Below, in pieces: positions 1-17,200 of a stretch of DNA of 64,000 bases; the stretch's first letter is position 1, and every line of letters starts with the position of its first letter. Under the pieces are notes generated by a model, which saw nothing but the letters and a program-made list of their open reading frames with translations, was not told where the DNA came from and searched no databases. The stretch is from Minisyncoccia bacterium. GTDB lineage: Bacteria > Patescibacteriota > Minisyncoccia > Phycocordibacterales > UBA918. A program made the position numbers and the translations under genes. The stretch is from NCBI GenBank assembly GCA_041750655.1, contig JBGSYZ010000011.1:1794-65793 (forward strand), read 5' to 3'.

Positions 1-1024
1 CATTCGTTTGCCACCAAAAAATTAAAATTGAGAAGTCAATAAGATCTACTCGTCCATCACGATTTAAATCAGAATTATTGGATGGTCTGCCTTCTACTCC
101 CACAAAAAGTTGGAGGGCCGTACTATAACTACTTTCGGTTTTAAGAGTACTACTACCCTTAACATAACGTGCTTTAACAATGTGTTCAGCTAATGAAAGA
201 CCAGCTGTATTAAGTGTCGCACTCCAAATCCCATCAGTAGCTGAAGTAACAGTAGTTGAAAGTTTGTTGTCAATGTACACCTCAACAGCAACATTAGGTG
301 GTACTTGACCCCTCACTGTAATGACGTCCCCAGGATCGACCGTAGCGTCGCTCAAGCTTATGGTTGGTGGCAACAGCACACCATTTACGTTAGTGATAGC
401 CCCTTGGGTAACATCGAAAGTGGTAGTTAGAGTTATTGAACGAGTCCCAATATTATCAACGGCCCAAAAACCTAAAGTAGTTGCCCCAGGATCAGCGGCT
501 ATTGTAAAACTAAATTCACCACTGCTATTAGCTCTTACTGTACCAATTGCGTCACCGTCAAGTAATATATTTACAGTTCGGTTTGGGTACGCATTACCAC
601 TAATACTTATTTTTGTATCACCTATGGGTTGAGAACTTCCGCCTCCGCCTCCGCCAGAAGAATTACCCCCACCAGTAGCTGCTGGTTCAATTTTGCAATC
701 TGCTGCACAAAAATCGTTGTCAATATTGTTACCATCATCACACTCCTCACCTTGCAGTGTCTGTAAAATTGAATCACCACAATACTGACCAAATTGACAC
801 TCTGTATCACACTGTCTACCAGCAATAGTTGTGCTGTACGTGCCTATTTCTCCGGGAACATCACACTCTTCCCCATCGTTAACGATTGAGTCACCACAAA
901 TACTTACCTTTAAAGTAGTAGTTGCAATTAATGACTGGCCGTAAGCACTACTAGGCACAAAAGAAAAAAACAACATCATTAAAATCAGATATGTTGTTTG
1001 TATTGAGTGAAGAAATCTTCTCAT
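1..1024 (-). CDS. Secreted Cys-rich-repeat / Ig-like / dockerin-domain protein (partial; C-terminal end runs off the window start)
   Basis: Absent from the ORF track because it is truncated. Reverse-complement translation from ATG at 1024..1022 gives MRRFLHSIQTTYLILMMLFFSFVPSSAYG (signal peptide), then ICGDSIVNDGEECD and YCGDSILQTLQGEECDDGNNIDNDFCAADC (a CxxCDDGN-type cysteine-rich repeat, Myxococcus-type pattern), a GGGNSSGGGGGGSS linker and a beta-rich region. At nt 1..100 it reads ...VEGRPSNNSDLNRDGRVDLIDFSILIFWWQTN, a dockerin-type Ca-binding repeat (D-x-N-x-D-G-x-V-x-x-x-D-F). The C-terminal half is clearly paralogous to the C-terminal half of 29617..31455. Confidence 0.6.
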   Translation of the reverse strand, partial: MRRFLHSIQTTYLILMMLFFSFVPSSAYGQSLIATTTLKVSICGDSIVNDGEECDVPGEIGTYSTTIAGRQCDTECQFGQYCGDSILQTLQGEECDDGNNIDNDFCAADCKIEPAATGGGNSSGGGGGGSSQPIGDTKISISGNAYPNRTVNILLDGDAIGTVRANSSGEFSFTIAADPGATTLGFWAVDNIGTRSITLTTTFDVTQGAITNVNGVLLPPTISLSDATVDPGDVITVRGQVPPNVAVEVYIDNKLSTTVTSATDGIWSATLNTAGLSLAEHIVKARYVKGSSTLKTESSYSTALQLFVGVEGRPSNNSDLNRDGRVDLIDFSILIFWWQTN

Positions 1025-1033
1025 ACACTCTAT

Positions 1034-1978
1034 CTATGACCTAAATCCTCTTCTTCGTGAACGACTATAGAAAATAATCAGTCCGATAATAATTAGTATA
1101 GTAAATATTGGGAACAAAACAGAAATCTTATGCGCAAGAGAAAGACCCATAAAACCATATCCTGCAATACCTGTAGATCCATACGGTAATATACTTAGCG
1201 TTACTTCCCCTTCTTGTTTTATATCTTCGCCATTCTTAATTTCGTATTTTGCTTTATAGCTTCCCGGAGGAAGTCGAGTAGGTAATTCTGCTACAACGTT
1301 ATCAGTAGCAAAGGGAGCGATTTTTTTAATTCTATTGGTGTGTGTAGTCTCTTCTAAAAGATTTGTTCCGTTAGCATTATAAATATCAAAATTAACCTCT
1401 GAAGGAGCAACTGGGACGTTCCCAGTATTTTCAAGCAGCATTGTTAATTTTATTTTTCCAGGAAAATACAACCACCAAAATTTATGACCTTCATCCAGAT
1501 CAGAGATACTTATACGTCGAACTCGGAAATCAAAAATCTCTTTATCAATAACATTCAAATCAATATCTACCTGCGCTCCCAAAGAAATATTTACTGCTCC
1601 GCGAGAAAGTTCTCCAGCAGGTGGAGCGGTCTTAATACGAATGTTTCCTTTATAGGCTTGAAAATCAGCATCATCAGGAACTCGCACCCGTACCGTCATA
1701 GGTACTTTATCTTCTCCTAAAGGTAAGGGAAACTCCGACCCTTCAACCACCTCAATCCAATCTTCAAAGCCTGGAGCATCAATAGAAATTGTAGCGTTGA
1801 GTTCAGAAGTTGGGTCACTGCGGACTAAAAGAATTTGTTGTTCGTAAACAGAATTTCGTGTCAGGCTTGAGTTGCGAACGTACGGAGGCGTGATACCAAA
1901 ACCGGCATCTGCTATACTCGGCAGCACAAAAAACAATAGTATAAAAAAACTAATACCTAATCTCTGAAAGTTCATCAC
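1034..1978 (-). CDS. Cell-surface protein, N-terminal signal peptide, C-terminal TM helix plus basic tail (paralog of 34421..35479)
   Basis: 314 aa. N-term MMNFQRLGISFFILLFFVLPSIADA (signal). C-term FPIFTILIIIGLIIFYSRSRRRGFRS (TM plus Arg-rich stop-transfer). Same architecture and size as the 352-aa protein at 34421..35479. The overall design resembles DUF916/CscA-type anchored surface proteins; I cannot verify that family without a search. Confidence 0.55.
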   Translation of the reverse strand: MMNFQRLGISFFILLFFVLPSIADAGFGITPPYVRNSSLTRNSVYEQQILLVRSDPTSELNATISIDAPGFEDWIEVVEGSEFPLPLGEDKVPMTVRVRVPDDADFQAYKGNIRIKTAPPAGELSRGAVNISLGAQVDIDLNVIDKEIFDFRVRRISISDLDEGHKFWWLYFPGKIKLTMLLENTGNVPVAPSEVNFDIYNANGTNLLEETTHTNRIKKIAPFATDNVVAELPTRLPPGSYKAKYEIKNGEDIKQEGEVTLSILPYGSTGIAGYGFMGLSLAHKISVLFPIFTILIIIGLIIFYSRSRRRGFRS

Positions 1979-2077
1979 AAAAAAGCGTTAACTGTCGCTT
2001 GTTACAATTATCCTTAATTATACTAATAAAATCAAGAATTTTTATTGGATAACAACTAATAATTATCAGTTAAAAAC

Positions 2078-2107
2078 AAAACTCTCGATAAATTAAGCGA
2101 GAGTTTT
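2078..2107 (-). terminator. Intrinsic terminator hairpin downstream of 2129..4036
   Basis: aaaactctcg-ataaattaag-cgagagtttt is a perfect 10-bp inverted repeat flanked by an A-run and a T-run (bidirectional). On the minus strand it sits about 22 nt after the stop at 2129 and is followed by GTTTTTAA. Confidence 0.5.
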
Positions 2108-2128
2108 ATAGAAGTTATAAATCTTAAA

Positions 2129-4036
2129 CTACCAATCAACTGATTCTCCAACAACAGCAATAAAGGTGTTTTGACCAGTGTAGTCTCCTGAGAGAGTAAT
2201 GGTACCCGGAATTTCAATACCCCAATACGTGATACCAGAAGCTGGAGTTGAGGTTGCCGTAGATTTAGCTACGTTAAGTTCAAGTTCTTTGGCAGTTGTA
2301 GAAGACAAATTATTACCAGATGTAGAAGCATTTAAGTACGTAGCAGTTGATGTTGGAGAGAAGACTTGGCGGAAATCTTCAACGGTAGAGGTGGCAGAAT
2401 TCGGACACTCAGTACCTGGTCCGGTATATGTGTTACACATTGACTCACCAGATAGAAGCTGATCCACCCCAACGTTACCAGTAGCTTGGATAGTTGTAGA
2501 AGCTTGCGATGCTCCAAGGTTGGCGTACACGTCATCGGAATCTTCACCTGGTGCCAATGATCCATACGGAATCAAGAAGCTAAGGAGATCAAAGGCCAAG
2601 AAACTATTTACTTCTACTCCAGAAGTTGACTCAGAAGCTGTTCCAGTGGCGTTATCATCATCTACAGCCCGTATTTGCGCTTTCCAGTCGTTAAGTGGGT
2701 ACTGGACAGCGGTAGTAGTAGCATCGGTCGGGTCAGCAATAAACCAAAGCGGAAATGTACATGAGAAAGCATCGCTAGTGTCTGTATTACCTGAACAAGC
2801 TGTCGTCGATGCAGTACATGAAAGATTCCATGTTGTGGTAGCGACAGCGCTGGTGTAGCAATCGTTTTCATCTTGATCACCAGCCACATCTACTCGACAG
2901 GTAGTAGAACTGTTACCGTCATAAATTGCCGTTGGGTCATCTCGATACAAGCTTAATTCATAATTTACAATTTCTGAAGTTGAGCCGATAGCCTGACAAC
3001 TGTTATTGTCAAATACATTGAAATCAAGAGTAAAGCCTTCTGTCGTACTGGCCTCTACCGTCAACACCATATCGGAGCCACCATTGATTGAGATGGTTGA
3101 ACCATCAACCGTTGGTGCAACGTTGTTGATATCAAAGGTGGTAGTAGCAGCGTGGGCTCCACCGGAAGCTTCATGACCATGTTCATCAACAATAAAAGGC
3201 ACAGCGTTATACGTAGTGTCTTGCCATGGTGGTGTCAAAGTCCACGCCGCAAAAGCGTCTGGATACATTAGACTTGAGGTAGCCAAGGTACTACCAGTAC
3301 AGGTATTAGTGGTAGTGTTGTAGCCACTATTTGAACACACAATTAATCTGATCTGATCTTGTCCTCCATCAGTGTCTGGGTCAGTAGAAGTAGAATAGAA
3401 AGTAATTGTTCCATCTGGATCAACTGGACCGTTGTTTGAGAATAATGTGAACGTCGGACGATCATTTACATTAAACGGTGATGTGACGGTGCCATATCCT
3501 TGTTGGGCTGGAGTCGTACCAGTACATCGTTGAGTAACCACATTATCATCACACACAAATCCAAACCACGCATTACTTTCATTAAATAAACTAGCAGCTG
3601 TTTCCAGAGTGGTTGTAGCCGCAGTTGCAGTCGCGTTAGAAGTCGTCAAAGACGACACGGCCCATTGCGTCCCCGCCGCACATGACGGCACTCCTCCTCC
3701 TGATGGAGTTGGTGTTGCATTAGTATCACAGATAAGTAGGTAGTAATCGTCTCCACTGGCATCAACTGCTAACACTTCCCACTGCATAACATCACCTGAA
3801 TTTGTTGGATAGGCAGTCGAAGACTCAAAACTTTCTTGAACTGGGCCGGTAATAACTGGCGGCAGGTTAATAACAGTAACAGAGGTAGTAGCACTATCGC
3901 TTTGAGCTACGGCTTGTTTAAATTCATTTGAACCAATATTAAAGACGAATATAAATGCAAAGCATAAAACGCCCAAAAGAATAGTGAGGACAGTGGCTCT
4001 ACCGGCTGTGCTTAAGTGCTGTATGTTGTACGACAT
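2129..4036 (-). CDS. N-terminally anchored Thr/Ser-rich surface protein whose C-terminal ~300 aa is homologous to the C-terminus of the giant protein
   Basis: 635 aa. N-term TM ATVLTILLGVLCFAFIFVF. C-terminal region (nt ~2132..3049) matches the giant protein's last ~300 aa: SCTFPLWFIADPTD vs SCTFDVYYFAEATD, and the terminal YWGIEIPG...GQNTFIAVV vs YWGIQIPFG...GSNTFYAVTD. Confidence 0.6.
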   Translation of the reverse strand: MSYNIQHLSTAGRATVLTILLGVLCFAFIFVFNIGSNEFKQAVAQSDSATTSVTVINLPPVITGPVQESFESSTAYPTNSGDVMQWEVLAVDASGDDYYLLICDTNATPTPSGGGVPSCAAGTQWAVSSLTTSNATATAATTTLETAASLFNESNAWFGFVCDDNVVTQRCTGTTPAQQGYGTVTSPFNVNDRPTFTLFSNNGPVDPDGTITFYSTSTDPDTDGGQDQIRLIVCSNSGYNTTTNTCTGSTLATSSLMYPDAFAAWTLTPPWQDTTYNAVPFIVDEHGHEASGGAHAATTTFDINNVAPTVDGSTISINGGSDMVLTVEASTTEGFTLDFNVFDNNSCQAIGSTSEIVNYELSLYRDDPTAIYDGNSSTTCRVDVAGDQDENDCYTSAVATTTWNLSCTASTTACSGNTDTSDAFSCTFPLWFIADPTDATTTAVQYPLNDWKAQIRAVDDDNATGTASESTSGVEVNSFLAFDLLSFLIPYGSLAPGEDSDDVYANLGASQASTTIQATGNVGVDQLLSGESMCNTYTGPGTECPNSATSTVEDFRQVFSPTSTATYLNASTSGNNLSSTTAKELELNVAKSTATSTPASGITYWGIEIPGTITLSGDYTGQNTFIAVVGESVDW

Positions 4037-4114
4037 AAAAATAACTATTTGTTTCCTCTATTTTAGCGAAACTTTTGCAGTTTGGGGAGTGTACTGGGGA
4101 AAAAACGGGGATAA

Positions 4115-5320
4115 CTATTCGTATCGAATAGCATCCAATGGATTCAGAGTTGAAGCGCGTTTGGCGGGGAAAATACCTGTTAGATAACCCACTGCTGCGG
4201 AGAAAATGGCAATGAACAACAAAAAATTTAACGGGAAAGAAAATAGTGACACTGATTGGCCACCAAATTGACTAGCCACAAAGTTAAGAAGTAGGTTGAT
4301 GGTTAAACCCAAAACTACACCCATAAATATACCGGTTATACCTCCCATAAATCCTACAACGACTGATTCGGATACGAACAACCATTTAATGTCTTTCGGA
4401 GAAGCCCCAATGGTCCGCATAATTCCAATTTCTTTCGTACGCTCTAACAAAGTTACTGTCATAGTATTAAACATACCGATGGCAGACACGAGAAGAGCGA
4501 TTCCGCCAAACACCGCCAAGACCGCTTGTACTCCTTGGAAAATCTTTGAGGCCTGCTCCACTGTTTTAGATAAGGCGGTTACTCGAAAGCCATCTTCGAT
4601 AAGAATTTCTTCTGTTGCATTTAAAAATTCATTTGAGGAGACACGAACTTGGGCCCGCTCGTATTCAGTAATACCAACATGCTGACGAAGTTCATTCATC
4701 ATCATTAGAGCGTTGAGCACTCCTTCTTCTTTGGTGATACCTCTCACGGTATACGTCTTATCAATATATACCTCTGTCACTTCGTCGATATTATCTTCTG
4801 ATTGAACTAACAATCTAAACGTTACCTGTTCGCCCACAAACTCTGCAACATCATCAATACCAAAAAGCTTAAGTACCGCTGGAGAGAGCATGACTGTGTT
4901 ACCATCATCGACATCTTCTTCAGTGAACACATCTCCTTCTGCAGCACTTACCCCTGAATACCGTAAATAGGCCGGTTCAGCACCTTGTAAGAACACATTG
5001 CCAGTCAACCCTTTATACGTAATCAAGGCCGGGAAACGCGCTAATGGAGCAGCGTCTAGTACATTATCAATTGATTCAATTTGAGAAATAGTTTCATCAG
5101 TGATTTTTATTGACTGTGAACCTGCAGAAACCCCGAGAGAGAGCAGTGTTTCACCAAACACAATTTGTTCAATAATAATTTTTTGCAGTCCAAAACCCAA
5201 TCCTACTAAAACCACTACCGCTCCAGTTCCCACACCCATACCAAGAATTGTAAGCCACGTACGAAGTGGGTTCGTAATAAACATTCGAGTCGATAATTGT
5301 GCTAAATCTTGTACACGCAT
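4115..5320 (-). CDS. ABC transporter permease, FtsX/MacB family
   Basis: 401 aa. N-terminal TM (LTILGMGVGTGAVVVLVGLGFGL), large extracytoplasmic domain, then three C-terminal TM helices (FtsX fold). Start ATG at 5320 lies 1 nt after the stop of the upstream ATPase, so the two are translationally coupled. Confidence 0.85.
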   Translation of the reverse strand: MRVQDLAQLSTRMFITNPLRTWLTILGMGVGTGAVVVLVGLGFGLQKIIIEQIVFGETLLSLGVSAGSQSIKITDETISQIESIDNVLDAAPLARFPALITYKGLTGNVFLQGAEPAYLRYSGVSAAEGDVFTEEDVDDGNTVMLSPAVLKLFGIDDVAEFVGEQVTFRLLVQSEDNIDEVTEVYIDKTYTVRGITKEEGVLNALMMMNELRQHVGITEYERAQVRVSSNEFLNATEEILIEDGFRVTALSKTVEQASKIFQGVQAVLAVFGGIALLVSAIGMFNTMTVTLLERTKEIGIMRTIGASPKDIKWLFVSESVVVGFMGGITGIFMGVVLGLTINLLLNFVASQFGGQSVSLFSFPLNFLLFIAIFSAAVGYLTGIFPAKRASTLNPLDAIRYE

Positions 5321-5321
5321 A

Positions 5322-6641
5322 TTACTTGTAACTTACATCTACTCCCTGAGCAATTAATTTTTCAAAATAGCGAGTAACCTCGTCAGCTAATGCTACCGGC
5401 ATACCCATGCCCCCAGTCCTTTTTGCTTCTTGTAGTTTTCGACCAAATTCGTCTGCATCACTCACTCCAGTCACCCGGTCGGCAATAAGTTCTGAAAATC
5501 GATTTTCCTCTTCCTTATTAAATTTTAAATTGTAGCTACCTTGCAGATATTCTTTAAGGCGTTCAGCAAATTTATGTTGTGAAAAGAAAGCACCGTCTGC
5601 TTCATGTTGAGCTCGAAAACGACGAATATCGTCGGCTTGAATTAGCATTTCTTCTGATTTATCTGCCATTCTTTGTGCGGATGAGCGTGAAATCTCCACT
5701 CCCCCATTTTCGTATTTTTTAGTAAGCGTTTTAATGAGGTTACTTTTATCAATCTTACCCATAATGTAAAACTTGATAGCTTTTTCCATACGTACTAACT
5801 GATCGAAAGTGTACTCTTGGGTCAAGTAATTAGTCAGACTTTTTACTCGCAATGTTTCAATCGAATCATATGGGAACAAGCGTGCCAACTGTTCAAGTTC
5901 AGTCACTATTGTCTCTCCTTCTTTCACTGGCTTGATTTGCTTGCGTTGTGGATTTACCACTTCACGCACGATGCGACCATCACGAAGGTAATACACTCGG
6001 TGGGCGTAGCTTAAATGAGCGGCATTGTGTGACACCATAATAATCGTCCGTTTATCAAACGTGTTAATCTCATCAATTTTATCCATCACTTGCTGAGTTG
6101 AAATAGAGTCAAGGTTACCGGTTGGTTCATCGGCTAAAAGAATCTGTGGATCATTCACCATCGACCGCGCTACCGATACACGTTGCTGCTGACCTCCAGA
6201 GAGCATAGCGGGAATTTTGTGGGATACATGTCCTACACCAAATCTGTCTAGGAGTGACTGAGCACGACGATCGCGAGATTTTTTATCGACGTCACAAAAA
6301 ATTTGTGGCAGAGCCACATTATCGAGTACAGACAATGATGGGATGAGATTGAACTGCTGAAAAATAATCCCCATCACGTAACGTTGAAAATACACCCGTT
6401 CTTGAGGAGGATATGAGTAGACGTCGTCACCCCGAATGAGCAATGTTCCTTCCCCTGGTGGAAGTGAGCCTTGAATCGAATACATCAAAGTAGACTTTCC
6501 ACAGCCCGAAGGCCCAAAGAGAATAATGTATTCCCCCTCGTAAATATCGGTGTTTACCCCCTGTAGTGCCTTAAATTCATTACTCTTCCCTTTGTTGTAA
6601 ATGATCGATAAGTCACGACAAACAATTAATGGTTTTGCCAT
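5322..6641 (-). CDS. ABC transporter ATP-binding protein (MacB/LolD-like) with ~200-aa C-terminal extension
   Basis: Walker A GPSGCGKST, ABC signature LSGGQQQRV, Walker B ILLADEPTGNLD, H-loop VSHN. An unusual long charged/coiled C-terminal tail (aa ~240-439). Confidence 0.9.
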   Translation of the reverse strand: MAKPLIVCRDLSIIYNKGKSNEFKALQGVNTDIYEGEYIILFGPSGCGKSTLMYSIQGSLPPGEGTLLIRGDDVYSYPPQERVYFQRYVMGIIFQQFNLIPSLSVLDNVALPQIFCDVDKKSRDRRAQSLLDRFGVGHVSHKIPAMLSGGQQQRVSVARSMVNDPQILLADEPTGNLDSISTQQVMDKIDEINTFDKRTIIMVSHNAAHLSYAHRVYYLRDGRIVREVVNPQRKQIKPVKEGETIVTELEQLARLFPYDSIETLRVKSLTNYLTQEYTFDQLVRMEKAIKFYIMGKIDKSNLIKTLTKKYENGGVEISRSSAQRMADKSEEMLIQADDIRRFRAQHEADGAFFSQHKFAERLKEYLQGSYNLKFNKEEENRFSELIADRVTGVSDADEFGRKLQEAKRTGGMGMPVALADEVTRYFEKLIAQGVDVSYK

Positions 6642-6698
6642 TTGTTTCTATTATGACATTAATACGAGACCAAAGAGGCGTGGTTGTCTACACATTTA

Positions 6699-8225
6699 TT
6701 AATTTGAAATGTTTTTGATCCAGCCGAATGATGACTGGAAGTTTTCGATGATAATATCGATGATACTTTTTTCTTTCACTGGTGTGAACAGTACAAAGTT
6801 TTCTGACTGTACAGCGTTACCAGCCTCATCCTCACAATTGAGCCAAAATTGATACACGGTCGCTCCAGCAAAATCAACAATTACTTCTACATGCTTCTCA
6901 GCGTAGTTCTTTTCTTCCTTTTCAATAGTAATTGGGTCAACTCCAGCCGCCACTCCTTCACGATACGTCACCAAACAAAATGCTGGTTCATCGGTCTTCC
7001 ATTCAATAATAGATTGGATGCGTACCTCATCACCAGGGAACAAAGTAGATTCGTTCGTTACATTAGAAATAATTGGCGGAGCGGTGTCTTTGACGGTAAT
7101 GAAGGTGATTGGATTACTTTTAACTCGATCACCACCAGCGTTCTCAGCAATCACGAACGCCACGTAGCGCGTACCGAGAGTCAAACCTTCTATCTCCATC
7201 TGGTTGTTAGTAGCGTACGTCGGGCGTCCTTTAGAATTTTGAACTCCTGTGGTGAGATCTTGGTACTCAATCAAAGCTTTGGCTGGAACCGTAGTGTCCC
7301 ACGCCAACGTAGCAGAGTTTTCTTGTACTTTTAAGATACGAAGGTTACGGATTTCTGGACGTGACGCTTTTGTCCGGAAAGTAAAGTCACGACTTTCACC
7401 AGTTATGCCGTATGAGTCGGTGGAGGCTACCTTGAAAGTATATTCAGTAAAAGGTTCAAGACCAATCAAACGCACTTCGTGGTCTTGAGTATCGCCATTT
7501 GTGCCCGACTGGGAGAAAGAATAATTCCCAACAGTATATCCATTGGTTGGCGAAAATGAAACATTTGAACTAGCCGGTCTATCTGTAGTCCACGATACGG
7601 TAGCTGATGTGGTTTCAACTACCACCGTTGGTGGACCAACAATGGTTAAATCTTCGGTAATACCCTGAATGGCTTTGACAGTTTCGTTAACAATTTCTTG
7701 CAGTTTTTGCGGATCGGTAATTTCCTGAATTTGTTCCTTGATTTGTTCAACGGTTTGTTGCTGTGTTTCAGTGGTGGTTTCCGAATTTTGACCCTGTCCC
7801 GCTTGCGAGCCTTGTCCTTGTCCATCGGCACTTGCTTGACCACTACCGTCAGCCGTTGGAGTACCACTAGTTACAACCTTATAGTCCGCTGAAATTCCCT
7901 GGTTGCCTTCCAAGTCAGCCGATACTACCCGAAAATAATACGTCCGGCCCGGTTCCAAATCATCGAGGGTAATTGAGTGCTGAGTTCTATCTACGGTCGG
8001 TATACGAACAATACCGTAATCCTCTTTCAGTCCATAGTTAACAATTGAGTCCGCGTTTTCATCAGTTTCCCAATTTATCGTTACACTGGTATCAGTGACT
8101 TCTGCAATCTCAACATTTTGAATAGTTGGAGCAGTGGTATCAAGCGCATTGATTGGTAGCGCAAAAACTGCACCGAATATAATGACTGGTAGTAACAAGT
8201 TTTTTGTACATTTCATCTTTGTCAT
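6699..8225 (-). CDS. Secreted protein with four fibronectin type III-like repeats
   Basis: ORF track starts at a GTG at 8240 that overlaps the giant gene's stop by 1 nt. A more likely start is ATG 8225 (MTKMKCTKNLLLPVIIFGAVFALPINA signal peptide). Contains repeated Fn3-like units (TAPTIQNVEIAEVTDTSVTINWETD...GRTYYFRVVS; PPTVVVETTSATVSWTTD...FTEYTFKVAS; RPEIRNLRILKVQENSATLAWDT...TRYVAFVIAE; APPIISNV...) separated by a Gln/Gly/Glu-rich linker. Confidence 0.7.
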   Translation of the reverse strand: MTKMKCTKNLLLPVIIFGAVFALPINALDTTAPTIQNVEIAEVTDTSVTINWETDENADSIVNYGLKEDYGIVRIPTVDRTQHSITLDDLEPGRTYYFRVVSADLEGNQGISADYKVVTSGTPTADGSGQASADGQGQGSQAGQGQNSETTTETQQQTVEQIKEQIQEITDPQKLQEIVNETVKAIQGITEDLTIVGPPTVVVETTSATVSWTTDRPASSNVSFSPTNGYTVGNYSFSQSGTNGDTQDHEVRLIGLEPFTEYTFKVASTDSYGITGESRDFTFRTKASRPEIRNLRILKVQENSATLAWDTTVPAKALIEYQDLTTGVQNSKGRPTYATNNQMEIEGLTLGTRYVAFVIAENAGGDRVKSNPITFITVKDTAPPIISNVTNESTLFPGDEVRIQSIIEWKTDEPAFCLVTYREGVAAGVDPITIEKEEKNYAEKHVEVIVDFAGATVYQFWLNCEDEAGNAVQSENFVLFTPVKEKSIIDIIIENFQSSFGWIKNISN

Positions 8226-8239
8226 AATCTTAGCACGCA

Positions 8240-11200
8240 CTAATCGGTCACTGCATAGAAGGTGTTGCTACCTTGGTGTGGCGCGGCGGCTGTACCAAAC
8301 GGAATTTGTATTCCCCAATATACATCAGCCACCACAGGGGTTGTTGTAGAAGTAGGCTTGAAAAGATCAACCTCTATTGCACTTGAGGTAGTAGCTAAAG
8401 TGGTACAAAACGCACACGCTGAATAATCAAAAGTAGTTGAAGCAAATTTCTGTTCTGATACCGGAATGGTAGATGCACCACCATCAGTTAAATCAGTACC
8501 ATCAATACTAATGTCGATATTTCCGTTTCCAATATTTTCTACAGTGGTAGTAGCGTTATAACTACCAGTATCTGCTGACGGTGTAAGCGAGCCGTAATTA
8601 ATTGAGTTTGTGGTCGATGCAAGAGTAATGGCATTTATAGTCAGAAGATCAACAGAAGGAGCAAAGGCGGAAGTAGTTGCACCGCTTTGATCAGACAATT
8701 CTATAAAACTTCGCCATGTTTCTCCTGAATACGGAGCCATGTCTGTCGCTTCCGCGAAGTAATACACATCAAACGTACATGAAAGCGTACAACTGTTCCC
8801 AGCACAGGCACTATATGCACACTGTGGAGCAGCGCTACGATAACAATTATTTTGATCTTCAGTACAGGTTTCTGTTACTCCACTTCTGAAGGTTGTCGAG
8901 GTGGCCCCAGCTAAATCAGTATAGCCGTTAAGGTCAGTGACCGTTCCACTCGCAGTAATCACAGTGGTAGTACCAGGTGACAATGTAATGTCTGCTCCCC
9001 CATTAAGACTCCACGCAGTGATAGTAGGATCGAAGGCTACCCCAAGCTCAGCTACACTCAAATAAGAATCAAGATCAGTGCCAGCATTAGTGACTCGCAA
9101 ACAATACGCGCTTGATGTTGCATTAACGGTTGGAGAGACAGCGTACTCAAGCTCAGTATACTCATTTTGATCAATATCTAATGAAGCTGTAATACTTGAA
9201 GGATCTTCTTTTATCTTACCGGAAGTAAAGGTTCCATTAGTTTCTAAGAGCAAATCTGTAGTATTATCTCCATCACTATAGTAGGTTGAGCTGACCATAC
9301 AAACTGGAGATGAGCCGCATGAAGACTGGACTGGAACTGAGTTATAGCTAGCGGCAGACACTGCTTCACAAGCCGGTGCTGCTCCCTTGGCTGCATATTC
9401 AATTTGGAACTGTTGACCAGTTATACCAAGGCCAGAATTCTCAACCGCAAAACGTACTCGTGCTACATCTCCAATCACAAAAGTATTGGCCGCGGTATCG
9501 AGCGCTGTGGCCCATGAAGCACCACCATCTGTTTGCTCTGCTCCAAAGATAACTGTTGGTTTAGTATTGGTACGGTATCTTGATGTGAAACTATCCCAGC
9601 CACCATTTTGACCCCAATAGGTAAATCCGAAACCACCACTGCTATGTGAAGAATCTGCAGCTGATGTGGTCGCTACTAATGTACCCCCAGAATTATATAA
9701 ATAAACATCTATAGTATTATCTGTTTGCCAATCAATCTCCACTTCATACCAACCAGTTGCATAAGTAAGAGTAGTGGAAGCTAGTATATTTACCGATCCA
9801 TAATTATCAGTACTTTCTACATTCTCAACCAGTGACATTCGCTCAATACCAAATTGTTCAAGACAAACTCCATAGTTAATATTACTAGTCACTGGTGACT
9901 GAACTCCAAACATAGCACAAGACTCATCACTAGAACCAGCGCCTGTATCTATGTACTGCATGTACCGAATAATTTGACCTTGACTTACAGTCCGATCAAA
10001 GCTAGCAATACCATCCGTCGCTCTAGATGACTCAAATCCGGTCGTATCAAGTCCTTTAGTACCACCAAAAGCAAATGATGAATCAACAGTAAAAAGCGAA
10101 GTGTCCCCGGAGTATGATCCAGACAAGCCTGACTCAAAATCATCAACCACAACAAACGTAGCGCTGGATGAACTAGTAGTGGTAGCGGTCACATTACTGT
10201 AGTACATGAATATATCCAGATTTCCTTGTGCTGGAAGTTCAAATACTTCAACCCAAACCGTAGCATCAGAACTAGCTGTATAACGTTCAATCCAATAATC
10301 TAGCTCTGTCACCCCATCACTTTTAGTAAACCGTAAATCCTCAAAGTCAGCTTGCATATCAGCATCGTACGTAACTGGAATTTTAATGGTAGTAGTTGCG
10401 TAAGTAGCGTTATCTGCATTAACAATTCGGACCCGTTGTCGAGCACCCCAATCAGTATCAAACCACTCTGAGGTAGGAACACCCTCTCCTCCGTCATCGT
10501 GTCGCCAACGATAATGAGTTTGTTCAACCAACAAACAAGCGCTGTCATCCCAACGAATTGAACCACAAGCATCAATACCATCAGCATCATAATCTTCACC
10601 GGAAAGATTACCGACGTGATCACGAAAAGTCCACGCATTTGTAGTCGTAGCATCAAGGTTCACGTTGAACGCGCTTATTGCTGTAGTGGTCGCAAAGCGC
10701 ACATTATCAATAAGTTTCGATGGGTTGGCATTTAGCGTCGTGGAAGCTAGCGTAATAGCACTACCTCCATCAACCGTAACTTCAAAGTCTCCATTGGAAA
10801 GTGAGGACACCGTTGGAATACCTGAGAAAGTCAAACCATTTACATCCAATCCGCGTAATTGATAATACCGAGCATTAAATGTCCCAGCATTTATATCAAA
10901 ACTGTAATTGGTACCACCTAAAGCTTGAATACTAGTACTCGCCGTAGCGGCCCCAATAATATTGAGATTACCAGCAGTTTGCGTAATCGAAGATGAAGCA
11001 GAGTCAACCACAAACACATTAACTGCTCGACTACCACCACCAAGAGCGGTGCCGTCAAAATCTGTGGCGTAGCTCCAGTACTCGGTACCAGTGGCGATAG
11101 TGTAGTTACCGTAGATATAGAGGTACCCCGGAGTATTAGCGTGGTCTTGTGAGTAGAGTGAACTAATAGAAGTACTGGCGAGCGTCGTGGTAGCGGCACT

Positions 11201-14200
11201 ACTGTCCCACATTCTGATATCCATTCCATCATAAATGTACAATGTACCGTAAGTGTCTCCACCAGCTGACTTAGTGTTGATACTGTAGTCACTTCCCGAA
11301 AGAAGTTTCAAAGTGCTATCTGTCCAGGTAGTTGCTGCTCCACCAACACTATTGCTAAATACCCCTTGTACAGCGAGTACAGTACCGGCTGTTTGCGTAT
11401 AACTAGCGGCGTTAGTGAGTAAGAAGTTTCCGGTAGTGGTCGCATTAGTGAGCATTGTCCAACCACCAGATGCACTCGCGATAGAAATGTTATTGAAATT
11501 ATTATTTCCAGGATTAATAGTTTCGCCAGCATCACTAGAATTAAACAAAATGGTACCAGAAGCGTGTGTAAATGTACCACCAGTTGCATCAAGCGAGCCG
11601 CCAATTGAAAGAGTACCAGAGGCGAGTGTTAGTGAGCCAGAATTTAAAATCAAATCATCAAGTAATGTTAGGCTATTGTCTTCCATGGTAAATGTTCCAC
11701 CACCGGTGAAAGTAACTCCATACAGGTCTGAACTGGAAGCCAGCAACGTAGCACTTGTTGAAGTTGAAATAACTAACAGTGAAGTGTTATCTACGACTGA
11801 ACCACCAGTATTTCGGAAACTACCACCGACTGATAAAACACCGGACGGCAAAGTTACTGCGCCTTTTTGTATAGTTATCGCTCCAGTCGCTGTAGCATTA
11901 GTATCGTTCATACTCCAACTACCAGTTCCATTAAATAGTAAACGATTGAAATCAGAATTATTGGCCACGACAGTCTCAGCAGTGGTAGAATCAAACACTA
12001 TTAGTCCGCCATTGGCCACAAAGTTACCACCAGTTACTGACAATGAACCAGTGATAGTGGTTGTGGCGTTCGGTAAAGTAAGAGTTCCGGCTGTTAGCGT
12101 CATATCATTGGCAACACGCAAAGATGTGTCAGAACTTGTAAAGGTGCCAGATCCATTAAGAATAAGGTTATAGAAACCGGTCTCGTTAGTGGCGATAGTG
12201 CGACCACTACCGGCTGAAGTAAATGTCACGGTAGATTGTGCTGGAGTGAAAACAGAACCAGTCCCCATTTCTAGGTTTCCACCAATAGCGTGGTTTTCAG
12301 TATTGGCCAGCGTTAATATCGCATTATCTCTCAATTCGACAGTTCCATCGAGAGCGTCAGATATTCCACCACCAGTAGTAATATTTCCTTGTGGTTCAAA
12401 CTCCTTGTTGGCCCAGACGATTAATTTGGTATTGGTGTTTAGCGTCAACGTATCAGAACCAGCATCAACTGCCGTAAACGGAATATCAGAATCGTTAACT
12501 GAGTCATAGACTGCCATATCGGCTATCAAAATCGGATCAGTACTTTCATGACGTAGAATCACATGGTCTTCGTAGATATCCATATCACCCACTGACGAGA
12601 TTGGGTCAATTGATACAGTAACTCCCTGATCACCGCCATTGCTATTTATAAACAGCGTCAACGTATCATTCGGACTGAAAGAAACACCGGAAATTGAGTA
12701 GGCACCGGTGGCAGAAGAACACGTCGAAGACGCCGCCGGGACCACTACTCCTGCTACTGCTAACACAATATTAGTAGTCACGTCATCACAGACACTAGAG
12801 ACAGACGAGGTATTGTTTTCATACACGTTTCCAGAAATTGTAATCACCGCCAACGAATCATCCCATACGATGTAGCCAGGATTACCATTATCAGCGTCAA
12901 AGTCTTCACCATCGACATCGCCGGTGTGGTTGGTAAAGCGCCATGAGCTCACCGTAGAACCAGAAGTAGTCACGTTGGTGGCGGCGGTCACACCGGTAGA
13001 AGTTGCGAAACGATTGTTAATAAAGTTTTTGGCTGGATTAGCATTTATTACTGAGCCAGCGACTGTCATTGCCGTAGCTCCAGTATTACCAATAATAAAT
13101 TCACCATTTGAAAGAGTGGTGACGGTTGGGGCACCTGAGAACGTCAAGCCATCATTATCTAGGTCTTGTAAGATGTAATATTGGGCATTAATACCACCAC
13201 CAGTAATATCAGCAGAATAGGTCCCGCTACCACCTTGCACCTGCACAGTAGTGGAAGCAGTAGTACTACCAATCATTTGTAATGAGCCTCCAGAGTATGT
13301 AAAGCTGCCACCATTCTCAACATACACATCTACCGCTCGACCGCTACCAAGCGTCGTACCATCGAAGTCTGTTGCGTAGCTCCAATAGTCAGTACCACTA
13401 CTCTTTATATAATCTCCAAATATATACAATTCACCAGTCACGTTTAGGTGGTCCATTGAGTAAACAGAACCGCCACTGGCAGTCAGGTAGGAGGTCGCAC
13501 TAGAATTCCACATCCGGATATGTGTACCAGCCGCTGCACTCAGATTTTCATACTGGTCTAATGTAGTGGAAGCATTAATAGTAAATTGTCCCGCACCAAA
13601 TAAATGTAACGTTGATCCAGTCCAGGTGGTAGCGGCTCCCCCAGCACCATTAGTAAACAGTCCGCCAACAGCCAAGCGGTTGCCAGAATTAAGAGTAAAG
13701 TTTGAAGTAGTACCGAGTGTCCAGGCACCGGTAGAAGTAGCATTTTCGATAACTGTTGCTGCTCCGGCCCCAGAAATATTCACTACCCCAAAACTAGAAG
13801 CCCCAGCGGCGATAGTAAAAGCATCGGTACTATTGAAGGTCACGGTACCACCGGAATTGGTAAACGTACCGTCATTATCCCAAGCACCACCAACAGTTAA
13901 AGTTGCACTGTTACTACCCACTAATGTTCCATTACTGGCTATATAGACGTCACCACCTATAGAACCGACCGGGTCATTGGTGTCCAACGTAAAGGTAGTT
14001 GGTGCCGTACCACCAACTCGCAGATTATTCAAAACAGGCAAACCAGTGGCAGCGGCAGTGAAAGTTGGTGTTCCCCCACTGGCTTCTACGGTAAGATTGT
14101 AGTACTGCGTATTACGAACAGTATTACCCAATACACCACCGTAGCGTACGGTACTGGTGTCTTCAAGGAAGGTTCCATTTTCTACAAAGACGCTACCGCT

Positions 14201-17200
14201 ACCAGTTAGGTTCCAAGCGGAGTTATTGGCATCAAGGAAGTGAGCGGCGTTTATAGTAAGGACTCCACTCACTGTATTGGTGGCCGTACCGCCCGGAGTA
14301 GTAGTACCAACAACCGTACCGTTTCCAAGAGTCAGGTTATTAACCGTCCAACTTTGAACACCCCCATACGTATTAGAGCGATAGATAGCGACTGTGCCAG
14401 CTCCGAATGATACCAATCCATCGCCATAAAATGAACCGTTGGTCACAGTAACATTGGCAGTACCGGTCAGGGTTCCGGTAGCAACATTAATGCCCGATGT
14501 TGCGGTAATATTTGTATTAAGATTCCAGCCGCCGCCAACGCCAGTAAATTGCAACGTGTTGAAAGCAAGGGTAGACGAAGCCGTAATAGTTTTACCAGTT
14601 GTAGTGGCTGTCATCACAAAAGTAGAAGATGCCGTCGTTAGTTTAGCGGCCGGCTCAACTATGATAGAGCCACCAACATTGTAGGTAGTAGTACCTACTC
14701 CCGTAAAGGTTGAAGTAGCTCCAAGGTGCAACGTACCATCATACACATTACCAGTGCCACCTGAGGTTAACGTTACTGGGCCACCAGGAGCAAAAGTGGT
14801 TGAAGCAAATATATAGAGCTCGTTGTCTGCCCGAACAGTCAAAGTATCGGTTGTACCAGTTGCTGCCACAAATCGAATATCAGTATCGTCACTTTCGTCG
14901 TATACAGCCATGTCTGCAATTGTGAGCGGGGCAAGGTCTTCGTGCCGAGTCATAACTCGGTTAGCATATATATCTAAATTAGTTATATTAGCGGTCGGGG
15001 TTTTGGTAATAACTGAACCTGTTGTGCCGCCATTGGTATCAAGATACACAATAATACTTGGGTCACCAACATAATTAACAGCTCCAAATGAATAGGATCC
15101 GTCTACTCCACTACATGGAGTTGAAGAGCTGTATACTCCACCATCAACCACAATCCGCACACTATTAGTCACACCGTCACAAGTTGGCCCACCCAGTGTG
15201 CTATTACCGTCATCTGCATACACTGTACCTGACACAACGATCGAATACGAACTATCGTCCCATCGAATCGATCCTGGGTTGCCGTCAGCGTTATCAAACG
15301 CTTCACCATAGCGATCGCCGGCACCATCACGAAACCACCAGTACGAAGTTGGACTGCCACTGAGAGTAACGTTTACGTTTCCACCAGCGGTCACAAAATC
15401 AGTGTCAAAGAACTGTTTGGCTGGAGTTGTATCAATAGTACTAGCGTCAACAGTAACTGCAGAAGAAGCAGCCGGAATTCGGAAATATGCATTATTAAAG
15501 GTGTTGACTGTACTTGAGCTGGTCAACTGGAAACCGCTAGCGTTTGTACCAGTAACTTCAAAGTATTGTGCTGTTACACTGGCCGTATTGGTACGCAGGG
15601 TAAAACTTCCACTTTGGGCATCTATGGTAGTAGAGGCGGTCGATGAACCAACAATACTAAGACCAGAAGATGAGGCGATGACGGTGGCGCCATTTTGAAT
15701 CCGCACGTCGACTTGCCGTGGTGTAGTGGTAGCCAGTGACACGCCATCAAAATCAGTCAGATAACTCCAGTGCTCTGTACCTGAGGTGCGGACGTAGTTA
15801 CCAAATATATACAAATCACCATCTACGCCAGTATGGTCTTGTGAGTACAAAGACGCGGTACTCAACATATTGTAAATTGTCGCACTGCTATTCCACAGAG
15901 ACACATCTCCATCACCAGTAACAGTTAACGTCGCATACACATCACTTGGAGCCGTCTTAGTGTTAATCACGTAGTCTGTACCTGAACCAAGAATTATATT
16001 AGAACCTGTCCAGGTGGTTGAAGCTCCGCCCACCGCGCTCGTAAATTCTCCACCAACATACAACGACAAACCGGAATTAAGAGTAAGTGTGCCAGCATTA
16101 GTAAGAGTGACGTTATTGGTCGATGTAGCGTTTTCTATTATTGTCCAGTCCCCACTAACGCTATTAAAGGATAGGTTATAGAACGAAGAACTGCCAGGAG
16201 CTATTGTTTCTGAACTAGAAGTTGAATTAAACAAAACAGTACCATCATTAGCATCGAATCCATCATTATTATCGAATGAACCACCTATGGATAGAACCCC
16301 GGTAGGTAAGATTACTTGACCGCTCTCAACTGTCATATTGCCCGTTACTGTAGTATTAATATCAGCCATGGTACGAACACTATCTTGCTGTGGCGAGCCC
16401 ACGGCATAAAAGTCGGTGGTTGTGCCTTGGTTGCGATAGGTAGCATCCTGCCAGGCAGTAGAACGAACTACATTTGAAATCTGGATCTCATCCAAAATAC
16501 CCTCAAACTCTATATCCCGATTTGGTCGTAAATCACCGATGGTTGAGCCTGAATTCCAAGTTCCTCCACCATCACTGGTGAAACTTAGTACGTTATTACC
16601 ATCAACGCGCACTGCGGCAGCCCCACCATCAATGGCTGTTGCCGACACATAATGCCATTCACCAGTGTTTATGTTTGAACCATTTGCCACATTACATGTA
16701 ACGCTGCTCGAAAACGCACAAAAACGGACTTCGTCAGTTGAACCTCCGCCTCCTGACCCACCAACAGTAAGCCAAGTGTAGGCACCGGCAGAATGGGCTG
16801 AGAAAATAGAATACCCATAGGTATTTGTATCTCCGCTTCCGGTAAGATTACTTGGATTAATCCAAGCCGATATTGTTATATTTGCTGCTCCTGATCCCAC
16901 ATTTCCGTAAGCAATATGTTCAGTTCCTGCAAAATTTTGTGCCTCATAAATTTGACCAAGGTTTGTCTGAGGTGGATTATTAGCTGATAGTTTAGTTCCG
17001 TCCAGACTTCCATTGGCACTATTAACAATAGTGCTGGTTGTCTCATCGTTCATATGTGAGACTAAAACGTATCCGTTGTTCCAGACATTTTGTGCTCCAT
17101 AGGTTGCAGTGACTGCGTAATCAGTTGCGGTTGCGTTTCCATAATAAATATAGAAAATTGTATCAGTAGTACTTGAAACACTCGATGCTTTAAAGTACAA

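What the first reader, a model, noticed from the sequence alone, without database searches (positions are those of the whole stretch)
2132..9136. Shared C-terminal domain between the giant protein and the 635-aa protein four genes downstream
The last ~300 aa of the giant protein (nt ~8243..9136) and of the 635-aa protein (nt ~2132..3049) align: ...SCTFDVYYFAEATD... vs ...SCTFPLWFIADPTD...; GSLTPSADTGS vs GSLAPGEDSDD; and both end with YWGI(Q/E)IP...G(S/Q)NTF(Y/I)AV. A conserved C-terminal module on two proteins of the same operon could be a secretion/sorting signal or a co-assembly domain. The motif is not a known LPXTG, PEP-CTERM or T9SS tag.
Basis: seen in the sequence. Interest (0 to 1): 0.55.

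Follow-up and report, generated by a model that had tools for sequence, protein, structure and literature searches.

The report
Shared pilin-like tail on two surface proteins
A 6287-residue surface protein and a 635-residue protein in the same operon of an ultrasmall (Patescibacteria) bacterium end in the same, previously unnamed two-domain module. The pairing is conserved in dozens of related species, so the module is probably a shared docking or assembly unit of an undescribed cell-surface apparatus.

Summary
The last ~263 aa of the giant protein (nt 8243-9031) and the last ~329 aa of the 635-aa protein (nt 2132-3118) are homologous (BLASTP E 4e-17; family profile against family profile, probability 99.9%, E 6e-35).

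The module has no Pfam, NCBIfam or PDB sequence match. It defines a large family: 1993 cluster representatives, almost always at the extreme C-terminus. The family has two ancient subtypes, one on ~600-aa proteins and one on 2000-7500-aa giants.

In 80 Patescibacteria genomes the gene order is conserved: giant, fn3 protein, ABC ATPase, MacB/FtsX permease, 635-aa-type protein, a 314-aa membrane-anchored protein, then dockerin and cohesin proteins. A giant-type module lies upstream in 55 of 57 testable loci.

AlphaFold2 (pLDDT 91) predicts an Ig-like domain followed by a terminal beta-sandwich. The best PDB matches of that terminal domain are donor-strand-exchange pilins, but the scores are weak (TM 0.38-0.54).

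It is not a short sorting tag. My best reading (confidence ~0.4) is a shared docking or co-assembly domain that holds both proteins on a common partner of the apparatus. This resembles the Firmicutes small-WxL/large-WxL/WxLIP clusters in logic, but membership in that family failed the sequence tests. The function is inferred, not shown.

The parts
8243..9031 (-). C-terminal shared module of the giant protein (aa 6025-6287), G-type. It ends ...VYWGIQIPFGTAAAPHQGSNTFYAVTD.
   Evidence: BLASTP; hhalign extent; HMM match
2132..3118 (-). C-terminal shared module of the 635-aa protein (aa 307-635), P-type. It ends ...TYWGIEIPGTITLSGDYTGQNTFIAVVGESVDW.
   Evidence: AF2 model of aa 300-635, pLDDT 91.2, pTM 0.86
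2132..2632 (-). Terminal beta-sandwich domain of p635 (aa 469-635), the family-specific pilin-like part of the module. It holds most of the residues conserved across both subtypes (IPYG, GN, Q..F, K, YWGI..P, G.N).
   Evidence: AF2 on the domain alone, pLDDT 91.4; Foldseek PDB hits dominated by donor-strand-exchange pilins; conservation
8243..8671 (-). Terminal beta-sandwich domain of the giant (aa ~6145-6287), the counterpart of p635 aa 469-635.
   Evidence: Mapping from the hhalign alignment
8240..27103 (-). Giant protein gene (6287 aa). It has an N-terminal hydrophobic segment followed by VSA|DD, DUF2341, beta-rich repeats, and the C-terminal module.
   Evidence: conservation profile against 22 other giants
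2129..4036 (-). 635-aa protein gene. It has a conserved N-terminal signal-like segment (..TAGrATV..h-region..AVA|QS), two Ig/cadherin-like domains, then the module.
6699..8240 (-). Secreted protein with fibronectin type III domains (three fn3 stretches matched by Pfam), a conserved cluster member.
   Evidence: Pfam fn3; present in 60/62 loci
5322..6641 (-). ABC ATPase (MacB/LolD/FtsE-like) with a ~200-aa C-terminal extension.
   Evidence: present in 66/68 loci
4115..5320 (-). MacB/FtsX-type permease with an extracytoplasmic MacB_PCD domain.
   Evidence: present in 73/74 loci
1034..1978 (-). 314-aa protein: signal peptide, strictly conserved N-terminus (GFGITPPYVRN), beta-rich ectodomain, C-terminal TM helix. 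It always lies immediately downstream of the p635-type gene and is my candidate docking partner (inferred).
   Evidence: present in 77/77 loci
1..1024 (-). Start of the next conserved cluster gene (Cys-rich repeats, Ig-like domains, dockerin-like DLNRDGRVD). It is cut by the window edge.
   Evidence: homologues follow p314 in the other loci
34421..35479 (-). 352-aa protein: signal peptide, a DUF916/WxLIP_PGBD-like domain, C-terminal TM helices. It is peripheral, and it is the only sequence link to WxL clusters.
   Evidence: PF06030, 28.4 bits against a cutoff of 27.3, E 1.9e-6

Best explanation
The two proteins carry paralogous copies of one C-terminal two-domain module: an Ig/cadherin-like domain followed by a pilin-like beta-sandwich ending in YWGI..P...G.NTF.A. 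The copies arose by an ancient duplication and have been kept on a small and a giant protein of one operon across class Paceibacteria (Patescibacteria).

I propose that the module is the shared docking or co-assembly unit of a dedicated surface apparatus. Both proteins are exported by Sec through N-terminal signal-like segments that are probably cleaved. Their C-terminal module then holds them on the cell by binding a conserved, membrane-anchored partner encoded in the same cluster. The most likely partner is the 314-aa protein that always follows the small protein, possibly through beta-strand complementation. The variable N-proximal part of the giant would then project outward. The MacB/FtsX-type ABC complex encoded between the two genes would supply mechanical energy on the outer face of the membrane for assembly or release.

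Shown: the homology, the C-terminal position, the fold, and the conserved gene neighbourhood. Inferred: signal-peptide cleavage, the docking function, the identity of the partner, and the role of the ABC complex.
For: The homology is significant. The module sits within 12 residues of the C-terminus in 102 of 106 analysed representatives and in all intact first-round hits.

The family has two stable subtypes, small proteins and giants, which are ~30-34% identical to each other. Within each subtype, mean pairwise identity among 46 genomes is about 53%. This points to an old duplication kept under selection rather than recent shuffling.

The gene order giant-fn3-ABC-FtsX-small-p314-dockerin-cohesin is conserved in 80 species-level genomes. 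A giant-type module lies upstream in 55/57 loci, FtsX in 73/74, and p314 in 77/77. It also holds in a more distant lineage (L002).

Both protein types have an N-terminal hydrophobic segment followed by conserved A-x-A-like sites. The mature proteins may therefore lack an N-terminal anchor and need another one.

The cluster's C-terminally TM-anchored proteins are p314 and the cohesin proteins. Cohesins have dockerin partners in the cluster, which leaves p314 as the unassigned receptor.

Eight invariant Cys in the P-type module are consistent with an extracytoplasmic, disulfide-bonded domain (inference). The module is the best-conserved part of the giant, while the N-terminal ~1600 aa are the most variable.

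The terminal domain resembles domains that work by strand complementation. In Firmicutes WxL clusters the same logic is documented: a small and a large protein share a C-terminal domain, and a TM-anchored Ig protein is predicted to insert a strand into it (PMC9772566, PMC10599100).
Against: No interaction was tested. Signal-peptide cleavage is only inferred, and the candidate site lies ~10-12 residues after the hydrophobic core, which is long for a signal peptide. If the N-termini remain anchored, the module would be distal.

Among close relatives the modules diverge as fast as the rest of their proteins (mean distance 0.47) and faster than p314 (0.38). This is not what a strictly conserved docking interface predicts. 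Distance-matrix correlations do not single out p314: partial r for modP-p314 is 0.52, against 0.42 for fn3 and 0.39 for the dockerin protein.

p314 has no reliable sequence link to WxLIP; 1 of 47 members hits WxLIP_HBD, at E 0.036. The structural matches to pilins are weak (TM 0.38-0.54, best E 9e-4).
Confidence: 0.4

Rival explanations
1. The module is a recognition or sorting domain for the MacB/FtsX-type ABC complex encoded between the two genes. After Sec export, the transporter's extracytoplasmic domain would grasp the folded C-terminal domain and use ATP-driven mechanotransmission to extract, push through the wall, or hand over both substrates. This would be a folded-domain signal comparable in principle to the T9SS CTD.
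For: The ABC ATPase and FtsX genes sit between the two module-bearing genes in nearly all loci (66/68 and 73/74). The permease has a MacB periplasmic core domain. The module is obligatorily C-terminal. The P-type always ends in an invariant Trp at the very C-terminus, as expected for a recognised terminus.
Against: MacB-type transporters are not known to recognise folded ~300-aa domains (established knowledge). FtsX shows the lowest residual co-variation with the modules: partial r is 0.09 with modP and 0.15 with modG. This is a weak test because FtsX is very conserved. No cleavage site or linker precedes the module.
Confidence: 0.15
2. The module is the distal, ligand- or host-binding tip. 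Both proteins would stay anchored by their N-terminal helices and present the same binding domain at two very different distances from the cell: long-range capture by the giant, close docking by the small protein.
For: N-terminal hydrophobic segments are present. In the giant this segment is followed by a small conserved domain and a long acidic, low-complexity stretch that looks like a wall-spanning spacer. The residues conserved across both subtypes are W, Y, Q, N, K and D, typical of glycan-binding sites. Foldseek also matches tip adhesins such as CupB6. The modules evolve fairly fast.
Against: The module is nevertheless the best-conserved part of the giant across distant giants, whereas the N-terminal third is the variable part. 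Conserved A-x-A-like sites after the hydrophobic segments suggest cleavage. In known systems, C-terminal domains shared by proteins of one cluster are usually anchoring or sorting devices (established knowledge).
Confidence: 0.15
3. The terminal domain is a true polymerising pilin-type unit. The module-bearing proteins would join each other (or further subunits) by donor-strand exchange, without a chaperone or usher. The result would be a filament or tether with the giant as its adhesive element, possibly energised by the ABC complex.
For: Nearly all of the top 35 PDB matches of the terminal domain are donor-strand-exchange subunits: CS17, CfaB, CS20, FimA/F/G/I, PapA/E, the PapG pilin domain, Caf1, SafA, and the environmental TLP-1a/b fibrils (PMC11494351). 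The whole module matches a CfaB-CfaB tandem best (E 4e-6). Chaperone-free donor-strand-exchange fibres exist in monoderms and archaea (TasA, ABP; PMC9245690).
Against: TM-scores are low (0.34-0.54). AlphaFold2 folds the domain confidently as a monomer (pLDDT 91), so no missing strand is evident. No abundant small 'major subunit' with the module was found: only two copies per locus. No donor-strand extension was identified. Model coordinates could not be inspected.
Confidence: 0.12
4. There is no specific shared function. The similarity would simply reflect reuse of common Ig-like building blocks in two paralogous surface proteins.
For: The first half of the module is an Ig/cadherin-like domain related to repeats elsewhere in p635 and, in some lineages, in the giant.
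Against: The terminal domain is unique to the C-terminus and is never repeated internally in the window. Its position, the two subtypes and the gene pairing are conserved in 55/57 genomes. About 20 residues are invariant or nearly invariant across both subtypes.
Confidence: 0.08

Closest known systems
WxL clusters of Firmicutes (small WxL protein, large WxL protein and WxLIP = DUF916-DUF3324-TM helix; PMC9772566, PMC10599100)
   Same: One small and one large secreted protein of the same cluster share a domain that is always C-terminal. The large protein carries many beta-rich or adhesin-like domains N-terminal to it. The cluster includes signal-peptide-bearing Ig-like proteins with a C-terminal TM helix (p314, p352), and p352 passes the Pfam WxLIP_PGBD threshold. 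The organism is presumably a monoderm (established knowledge of Patescibacteria). WxLIP is predicted to insert a strand into the WxL domain, which parallels the pilin-like fold found here.
   Different: None of 69 module sequences matches Pfam WxL, even at E<=10. The dual WxL motif on adjacent strands is absent: there is only one W-G-[ILV] motif. The module is larger (two domains, 260-330 aa against ~180 or fewer). The phylum is Patescibacteria, not Bacilli. The large protein is about 10 times larger. The cluster contains a MacB/FtsX ABC transporter and cohesin and dockerin proteins, which WxL clusters lack. p314 does not match WxLIP.
Chaperone-usher pilins and tip adhesins (CfaB/CS17 class 5, FimA/FimH, PapA/PapG) and other donor-strand-exchange fibres (TasA/ABP, TLP-1)
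   Same: The terminal domain's best structural matches are these pilin domains. In chaperone-usher pili, a tip adhesin and the shorter subunits share a C-terminal pilin domain through which they are joined.
   Different: There is no sequence similarity. No PapD-like chaperone or usher is encoded in the operon. CPR bacteria are not thought to have an outer membrane (established knowledge). No donor-strand extension was identified. TM-scores are only 0.38-0.54.
Folded C-terminal sorting or anchoring domains (T9SS CTD, LPXTG, SLH, PEP-CTERM)
   Same: A domain or signal shared at the C-terminus of several surface proteins that directs a common fate.
   Different: There were no hits to any of these families. 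There is no LPXTG motif and no C-terminal TM helix with a basic tail. The module is far larger than a tag. In the window, and in the relatives I examined, it occurs on just two protein types.
Giant DUF2341/FhaB-domain proteins of Patescibacteria (PMC11809585)
   Same: The giant here is one of these: more than 4000 aa and DUF2341-positive. Such proteins are thought to mediate adhesion or host interaction.
   Different: The passages of that paper I searched report domain counts only. They do not mention the C-terminal module, the small paralogue or the conserved ABC/FtsX cluster.

Membership tests
WxL domain / WxL cluster | Sequence match to the WxL domain model (Pfam PF13731) | tested here: not met
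   0 of 69 module sequences hit it at E<=10. p635 and the giant C-terminus gave no hit.
WxL domain / WxL cluster | Two conserved Trp-x-Leu motifs on adjacent strands, ~68-106 residues apart (PMC9772566) | tested here: not met
   Only one comparable motif is present: invariant W306 in YWG[ILV]. The other conserved Trp (W152) lies 154 residues upstream in the other domain, in the context W-[KR]-[AS].
WxL domain / WxL cluster | [quoted passage not shown] | tested here: met
WxL domain / WxL cluster | The cluster contains a WxLIP (signal peptide, DUF916, DUF3324, TM helix; 337-365 aa) | tested here: inconclusive
   p352 (352 aa; signal peptide and C-terminal TM helices) hits WxLIP_PGBD at 28.4 bits against a cutoff of 27.3. 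However, its gene begins about 7 kb upstream of the giant's start (about 30 kb from p635) and it is not part of the conserved cluster. p314 has the right architecture, but only 1 of 47 members hits WxLIP_HBD, at E 0.036.
WxL domain / WxL cluster | Non-covalent binding to peptidoglycan | not testable with these tools
   Needs a binding assay.
Chaperone-usher / donor-strand-exchange pilins | Pilin-type Ig-like fold | tested here: inconclusive
   The top Foldseek hits are almost all such pilins, but TM is 0.38-0.54 and the best E is 9e-4. There is no sequence relation.
Chaperone-usher / donor-strand-exchange pilins | Incomplete fold completed by a donor strand from another subunit | not testable with these tools
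The monomer folds with pLDDT 91.
Chaperone-usher / donor-strand-exchange pilins | PapD-like chaperone and usher genes in the operon | tested here: not met
   No such Pfam or NCBIfam hits among the operon proteins.
LPXTG / PEP-CTERM / T9SS CTD sorting signals | Match to the signal models; LPXTG motif or C-terminal TM helix plus basic tail | tested here: not met
   No NCBIfam or Pfam hits at E<=0.1. The C-termini ...VGESVDW and ...FYAVTD have no hydrophobic tail.
Type I secretion (RTX adhesin) C-terminal signal | HlyB-type ABC exporter with a membrane-fusion protein; RTX repeats | tested here: not met
   The ABC system is of the MacB/FtsX type. No RTX hits were found in the C-terminal 699 aa of the giant or in p635, the only parts scanned. 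Both proteins have N-terminal Sec-type segments.
Patescibacterial giant DUF2341 proteins | More than 4000 aa with DUF2341 domain(s) | tested here: met
   6287 aa; PF10102, E 7e-17; compare PMC11809585.

The most novel reading that the evidence does not exclude
The module is the joining unit of a new kind of surface filament or tether in Patescibacteria. A giant adhesin and a short subunit would be linked through pilin-like C-terminal domains by beta-strand complementation, to each other or to the membrane-anchored p314. This would happen without chaperone, usher, sortase or outer membrane, and with assembly or tension driven by a MacB/FtsX-type mechanotransmission ABC complex. It would be an ABC-powered, donor-strand-type attachment organelle of episymbiotic ultrasmall bacteria.
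Probability: 0.12. Interest if true: 0.85.

Novelty: new variant of a known kind. Interest (0 to 1): 0.58.

Why it matters
How Patescibacteria (CPR) cells, which make up a large share of bacterial diversity and are mostly obligate epibionts, attach to and interact with hosts is largely unknown outside Saccharibacteria. This finding does three things.

- It defines an unannotated domain family: about 2000 cluster representatives and no Pfam or NCBIfam model.
- It shows that the giant DUF2341 proteins noticed in these genomes are not isolated genes. They belong to a strongly conserved cluster of roughly 11 genes, with a MacB/FtsX ABC complex, a small paralogue sharing the same C-terminal module, a dedicated membrane-anchored Ig-like protein, and cohesin and dockerin proteins.
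- It gives concrete, testable interaction hypotheses (module with p314, with FtsX, or with another module), and a sequence handle for finding the apparatus in metagenomes and in cryo-ET or proteomic data.

Tried and rejected
**Known-family searches**
- Pfam, NCBIfam and PDB sequence searches of the module, both single sequences and a 69-member profile, found nothing.
- I tested the WxL-domain idea, prompted by YWGI resembling WxL and by a WxLIP_PGBD hit nearby. It failed on the sequence model and on the dual-motif criterion. I keep it only as an analogy.
- p314 as a WxLIP homologue: a profile scan of 47 orthologues gave 1 weak hit. A PDB profile search found no WxLIP. A homologue search found only unannotated Paceibacteria proteins. 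Rejected as a member, kept as a candidate partner.

**Searches that gave no useful signal**
- The search for related loci with the broad alignment A2 failed because it had no conserved stretch. It succeeded with the narrower A3.
- Mirror-tree co-evolution among cluster proteins across 46 genomes showed no partner standing out.
- The promoter and terminator scan of the operon found nothing above the shuffled expectation.
- Literature searches for this cluster (DUF2341, Patescibacteria, cohesin, dockerin, FtsX, donor strand) found only general remarks on giant DUF2341 proteins.

**Readings I rejected**
- Homology between the regions upstream of the modules is rejected: hhalign gave probability 0.2%. 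An apparent extension of the match in the A2 HMM was an artefact of forced alignment columns.
- A T1SS-type C-terminal signal is rejected because the ABC transporter is of the MacB type.

Full report
**1.

All genes discussed lie on the minus strand:
- giant ORF, 8240-27103 (6287 aa)
- fn3 protein, 6699-8240
- ABC ATPase, 5322-6641
- MacB/FtsX permease, 4115-5320
- 635-aa protein (p635), 2129-4036
- 314-aa protein (p314), 1034-1978

BLASTP of p635 against the giant's last 699 residues gives 30% identity over 259 columns, E 4e-17.

To define the extent, I aligned 80 p635 orthologues and 52 giant C-termini taken from related genomes and compared the two profiles. The result was probability 99.9%, E 6.3e-35, aligning p635 aa 307-629 with giant aa 6025-6286. 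The regions upstream are not related (second-best hit, probability 0.2%).

The shared module is therefore nt 2132-3118 and nt 8243-9031. A six-frame HMM search finds no third copy in the 64-kb window.

**2. It is an unnamed but very large family, always C-terminal, with two subtypes**

The module has no match in Pfam, in NCBIfam (which contains the LPXTG, PEP-CTERM and T9SS CTD models), or among PDB sequences. This holds for single sequences and for a 69-member profile.

A word-indexed search found 73 relatives, all 'hypothetical', from Candidatus Giovannonibacteria and Paceibacterota. An exhaustive profile search of 1.84 billion cluster representatives found 1993 hits at E<=1e-3 and 1130 at E<=1e-30.

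The match ends within 12 residues of the C-terminus in 102 of 106 analysed representatives and in all intact first-round hits.

Two subtypes are evident:
- Proteins of ~550-650 aa ending ...YWGI.VP..IT.AG.YTG.NTF.A...E...W.
- Giants of 2000-7500 aa ending ...YWGI.IPFG....H.G.NTFYA..D.

The subtypes are ~30-34% identical to each other. Within each subtype, mean pairwise identity among 46 genomes is about 53%. This indicates an ancient duplication that has been maintained.

Across both subtypes G221, N222, Q258, W306 and G322 are invariant. C127, T138, W152, D160, I190, Y192, G193, G231, Y268, K292, G307, I308, P311 and N324 are conserved in at least 90% of sequences.

**3. The pairing is part of a conserved gene cluster**

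Two homologue contexts showed the same order first. One of them is a distant lineage on a 638-kb contig.

A scan of one genome per GTDB species returned 115 relatives, of which I kept 80 loci. The records are titled Paceibacteria, Paceibacterota, Kaiserbacteria, Nomurabacteria, Parcubacteria, Patescibacteria group, 'uncultured Candidatus Saccharibacteria' or simply 'bacterium', apart from one labelled Acidimicrobiales.

Labelling the six-frame ORFs with the window's proteins gave the same order nearly everywhere:
1. giant (G-type module)
2. fn3 protein
3. ABC ATPase (~443 aa)
4. FtsX/MacB permease
5. p635-type protein (P-type module)
6. p314-type protein
7. dockerin-like protein (~380 aa)
8. 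p377-type protein
9. three cohesin-like proteins

Where enough flank was available, the counts were: giant-type module upstream in 55/57 loci, FtsX 73/74, ABC 66/68, fn3 60/62, p314 77/77. In the window, the gene after p314 is the same dockerin-like protein, cut by the window edge. Additional cohesin, dockerin, p377 and p352 genes lie upstream of the giant.

**4. Structure**

AlphaFold2 with the 69-sequence alignment gives a confident model of p635 aa 300-635 (pLDDT 91.2, pTM 0.86). It has two beta-sandwich domains.

The first domain begins with the N.(A/D)PT(V/I) linker typical of cadherin-like Ig repeats. It is related to repeats elsewhere in p635 and, in some lineages, in the giant. The family-specific part is the terminal domain (aa 469-635), which folds on its own with pLDDT 91.4.

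Foldseek against the PDB matches the whole module best to a CfaB-CfaB pilin tandem (E 4e-6). After that come the CupB6 tip adhesin, RbmA, integrin alpha and Fabs, at TM 0.34-0.39 or lower.

The terminal domain alone matches almost exclusively subunits that assemble by donor-strand exchange:
- CS17 (E 9e-4), CfaB and CS20
- FimA, FimF, FimG and FimI
- PapA, PapE and the PapG pilin domain
- Caf1 and SafA
- the environmental fibrils TLP-1a/b (PMC11494351)

TM-scores are only 0.38-0.54. This supports a pilin-like Ig fold but does not support homology. The E. faecium WxLIP structure 9i1y appears only at rank 42.

**5. Topology clues**

p635 orthologues share a strikingly conserved N-terminus: M.YN....TAGKITV, then a hydrophobic core, FN(I/L)G, and A.A|QS.ATT.VTVLNTPP. 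Giants have a hydrophobic segment followed by A-x-A-like sites and a conserved V.VFP...GW.N...QD domain.

These look like Sec signal peptides with signal peptidase I sites, although the c-region is long. If they are cleaved, the mature proteins have no N-terminal anchor.

Eight invariant Cys in the P-type module are consistent with an extracytoplasmic, disulfide-bonded domain; this is my inference. Against 22 other giants, the window's giant is most variable in its first ~1600 residues (6-18% of positions identical). It is conserved over the C-terminal two-thirds (37-46%), and the module is best conserved (49-52%, aligned in all subjects).

**6. Mechanism**

Cases where several surface proteins of one cluster share a C-terminal domain are, in known biology, usually shared anchoring or sorting devices. 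The closest documented case is the Firmicutes WxL cluster. It has a small and a large protein with the same C-terminal WxL domain, plus WxLIP. WxLIP consists of a signal peptide, two Ig-like domains and a TM helix, and it is predicted to insert a beta-strand into WxL (PMC9772566, PMC10599100).

The logic here is the same, and one nearby protein (p352) passes the Pfam WxLIP_PGBD threshold (28.4 against 27.3 bits). Membership fails, however:
- There is no WxL model hit in 69 sequences.
- There is no dual WxL motif.
- p314 does not match WxLIP.
- The cluster contains an ABC/FtsX system and cohesin and dockerin proteins, which WxL clusters lack.

I therefore propose, at confidence ~0.4, a docking or co-assembly module that attaches both proteins to a conserved partner of the apparatus. 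p314 is the leading candidate. It is always adjacent and is TM-anchored. It has a nearly invariant mature N-terminus, GFGITPPYVRN. It is also the only C-terminally TM-anchored protein of the cluster, other than the cohesin proteins, without an obvious ligand.

The rivals are:
- a recognition domain for the MacB-type transporter (0.15)
- a distal host-binding tip (0.15)
- a true polymerising pilin unit (0.12)
- no specific shared function (0.08)

A distance-matrix co-variation test over 46 genomes did not discriminate between them. It also showed that the modules evolve as fast as the rest of their proteins, which tempers the docking argument.

**7. Novelty**

Searches of the held literature found only general remarks that Patescibacteria encode giant FhaB/DUF2341 proteins of presumed adhesive function (PMC11809585). 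I found nothing on this module, the small paralogue or the conserved cluster. The library is incomplete, so an existing description cannot be excluded.

I rate it a new variant of a known kind: a C-terminal anchoring or assembly module shared by a small and a large surface protein. It is carried by a new domain family in an apparently undescribed, ABC-associated surface-apparatus cluster.

Noticed in passing
window 1-8240 and 27230-36748; loci L004-L083: A conserved cluster of roughly 11 genes in Paceibacteria combines a giant protein, an fn3 protein, a MacB/FtsX ABC system, Ig-like TM-anchored proteins and several cohesin- and dockerin-domain proteins. It looks like a cellulosome-style scaffold with no evident enzymes. 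In the window, extra cohesin (27230-28765), dockerin (29617-31455), p377 and p352 genes lie upstream of the giant as a second set.
   Followed up: partly
window 5322-6641 (-): The ABC ATPase is ~440 aa instead of ~230. It has a ~200-aa charged C-terminal extension (by eye it looks helical; not tested) that is conserved in length in nearly all related loci (~440-460 aa). Its function is unknown.
   Followed up: no
window 2132-2134 (last codon of p635); alignment A3: P-type proteins end in an invariant Trp at the very C-terminus (...E...W-COOH). Giant-type modules do not. This suggests that the free C-terminus of the small protein is itself recognised.
   Followed up: no
window 3900-4036 (-) and p635 orthologues in L004-L083: The N-terminal segment of p635 orthologues is unusually conserved for a signal peptide (M.YN...TAGKITV...FN[IL]G...A.AQS), including the n-region. 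It may be a specialised signal or a retained anchor that contacts the machinery.
   Followed up: partly
window 31509-34000 (-): There are three tandem paralogous genes (267-273 aa) with FGE-sulfatase (formylglycine-generating-enzyme-like) domains, next to the dockerin gene.
   Followed up: no
window 41113-45750 (-): A 1545-aa fusion protein carries two GT4 glycosyltransferase units plus PMT_2- and DUF2206-like membrane domains. It lies next to a polysaccharide-synthesis (flippase-type) gene and a GH5/GH39-like gene, possibly for surface glycan or protein glycosylation.
   Followed up: no
window 22300-27103 (giant aa 1-1600): The N-terminal ~1600 residues of the giant, including an acidic low-complexity stretch at aa ~110-330, are far more variable between species than the C-terminal two-thirds.
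   Followed up: partly
L001 3-4771: In this relative the giant gene is split: the terminal part of the module lies in a separate overlapping ORF (4295-4771). This indicates a frameshift or an assembly error.
   Followed up: no
L029: One locus with the complete cluster comes from a MAG labelled Acidimicrobiales. It is probably a mis-binned Patescibacteria contig.
   Followed up: no
PDB 9ikj/9ikk against model mcf6ac336523a: The freshwater fibrils TLP-1a/b, whose source organism is unknown, are among the better structural matches of the terminal domain (TMq 0.45-0.48, prob 0.96-0.99). There is no sequence relation.
   Followed up: partly
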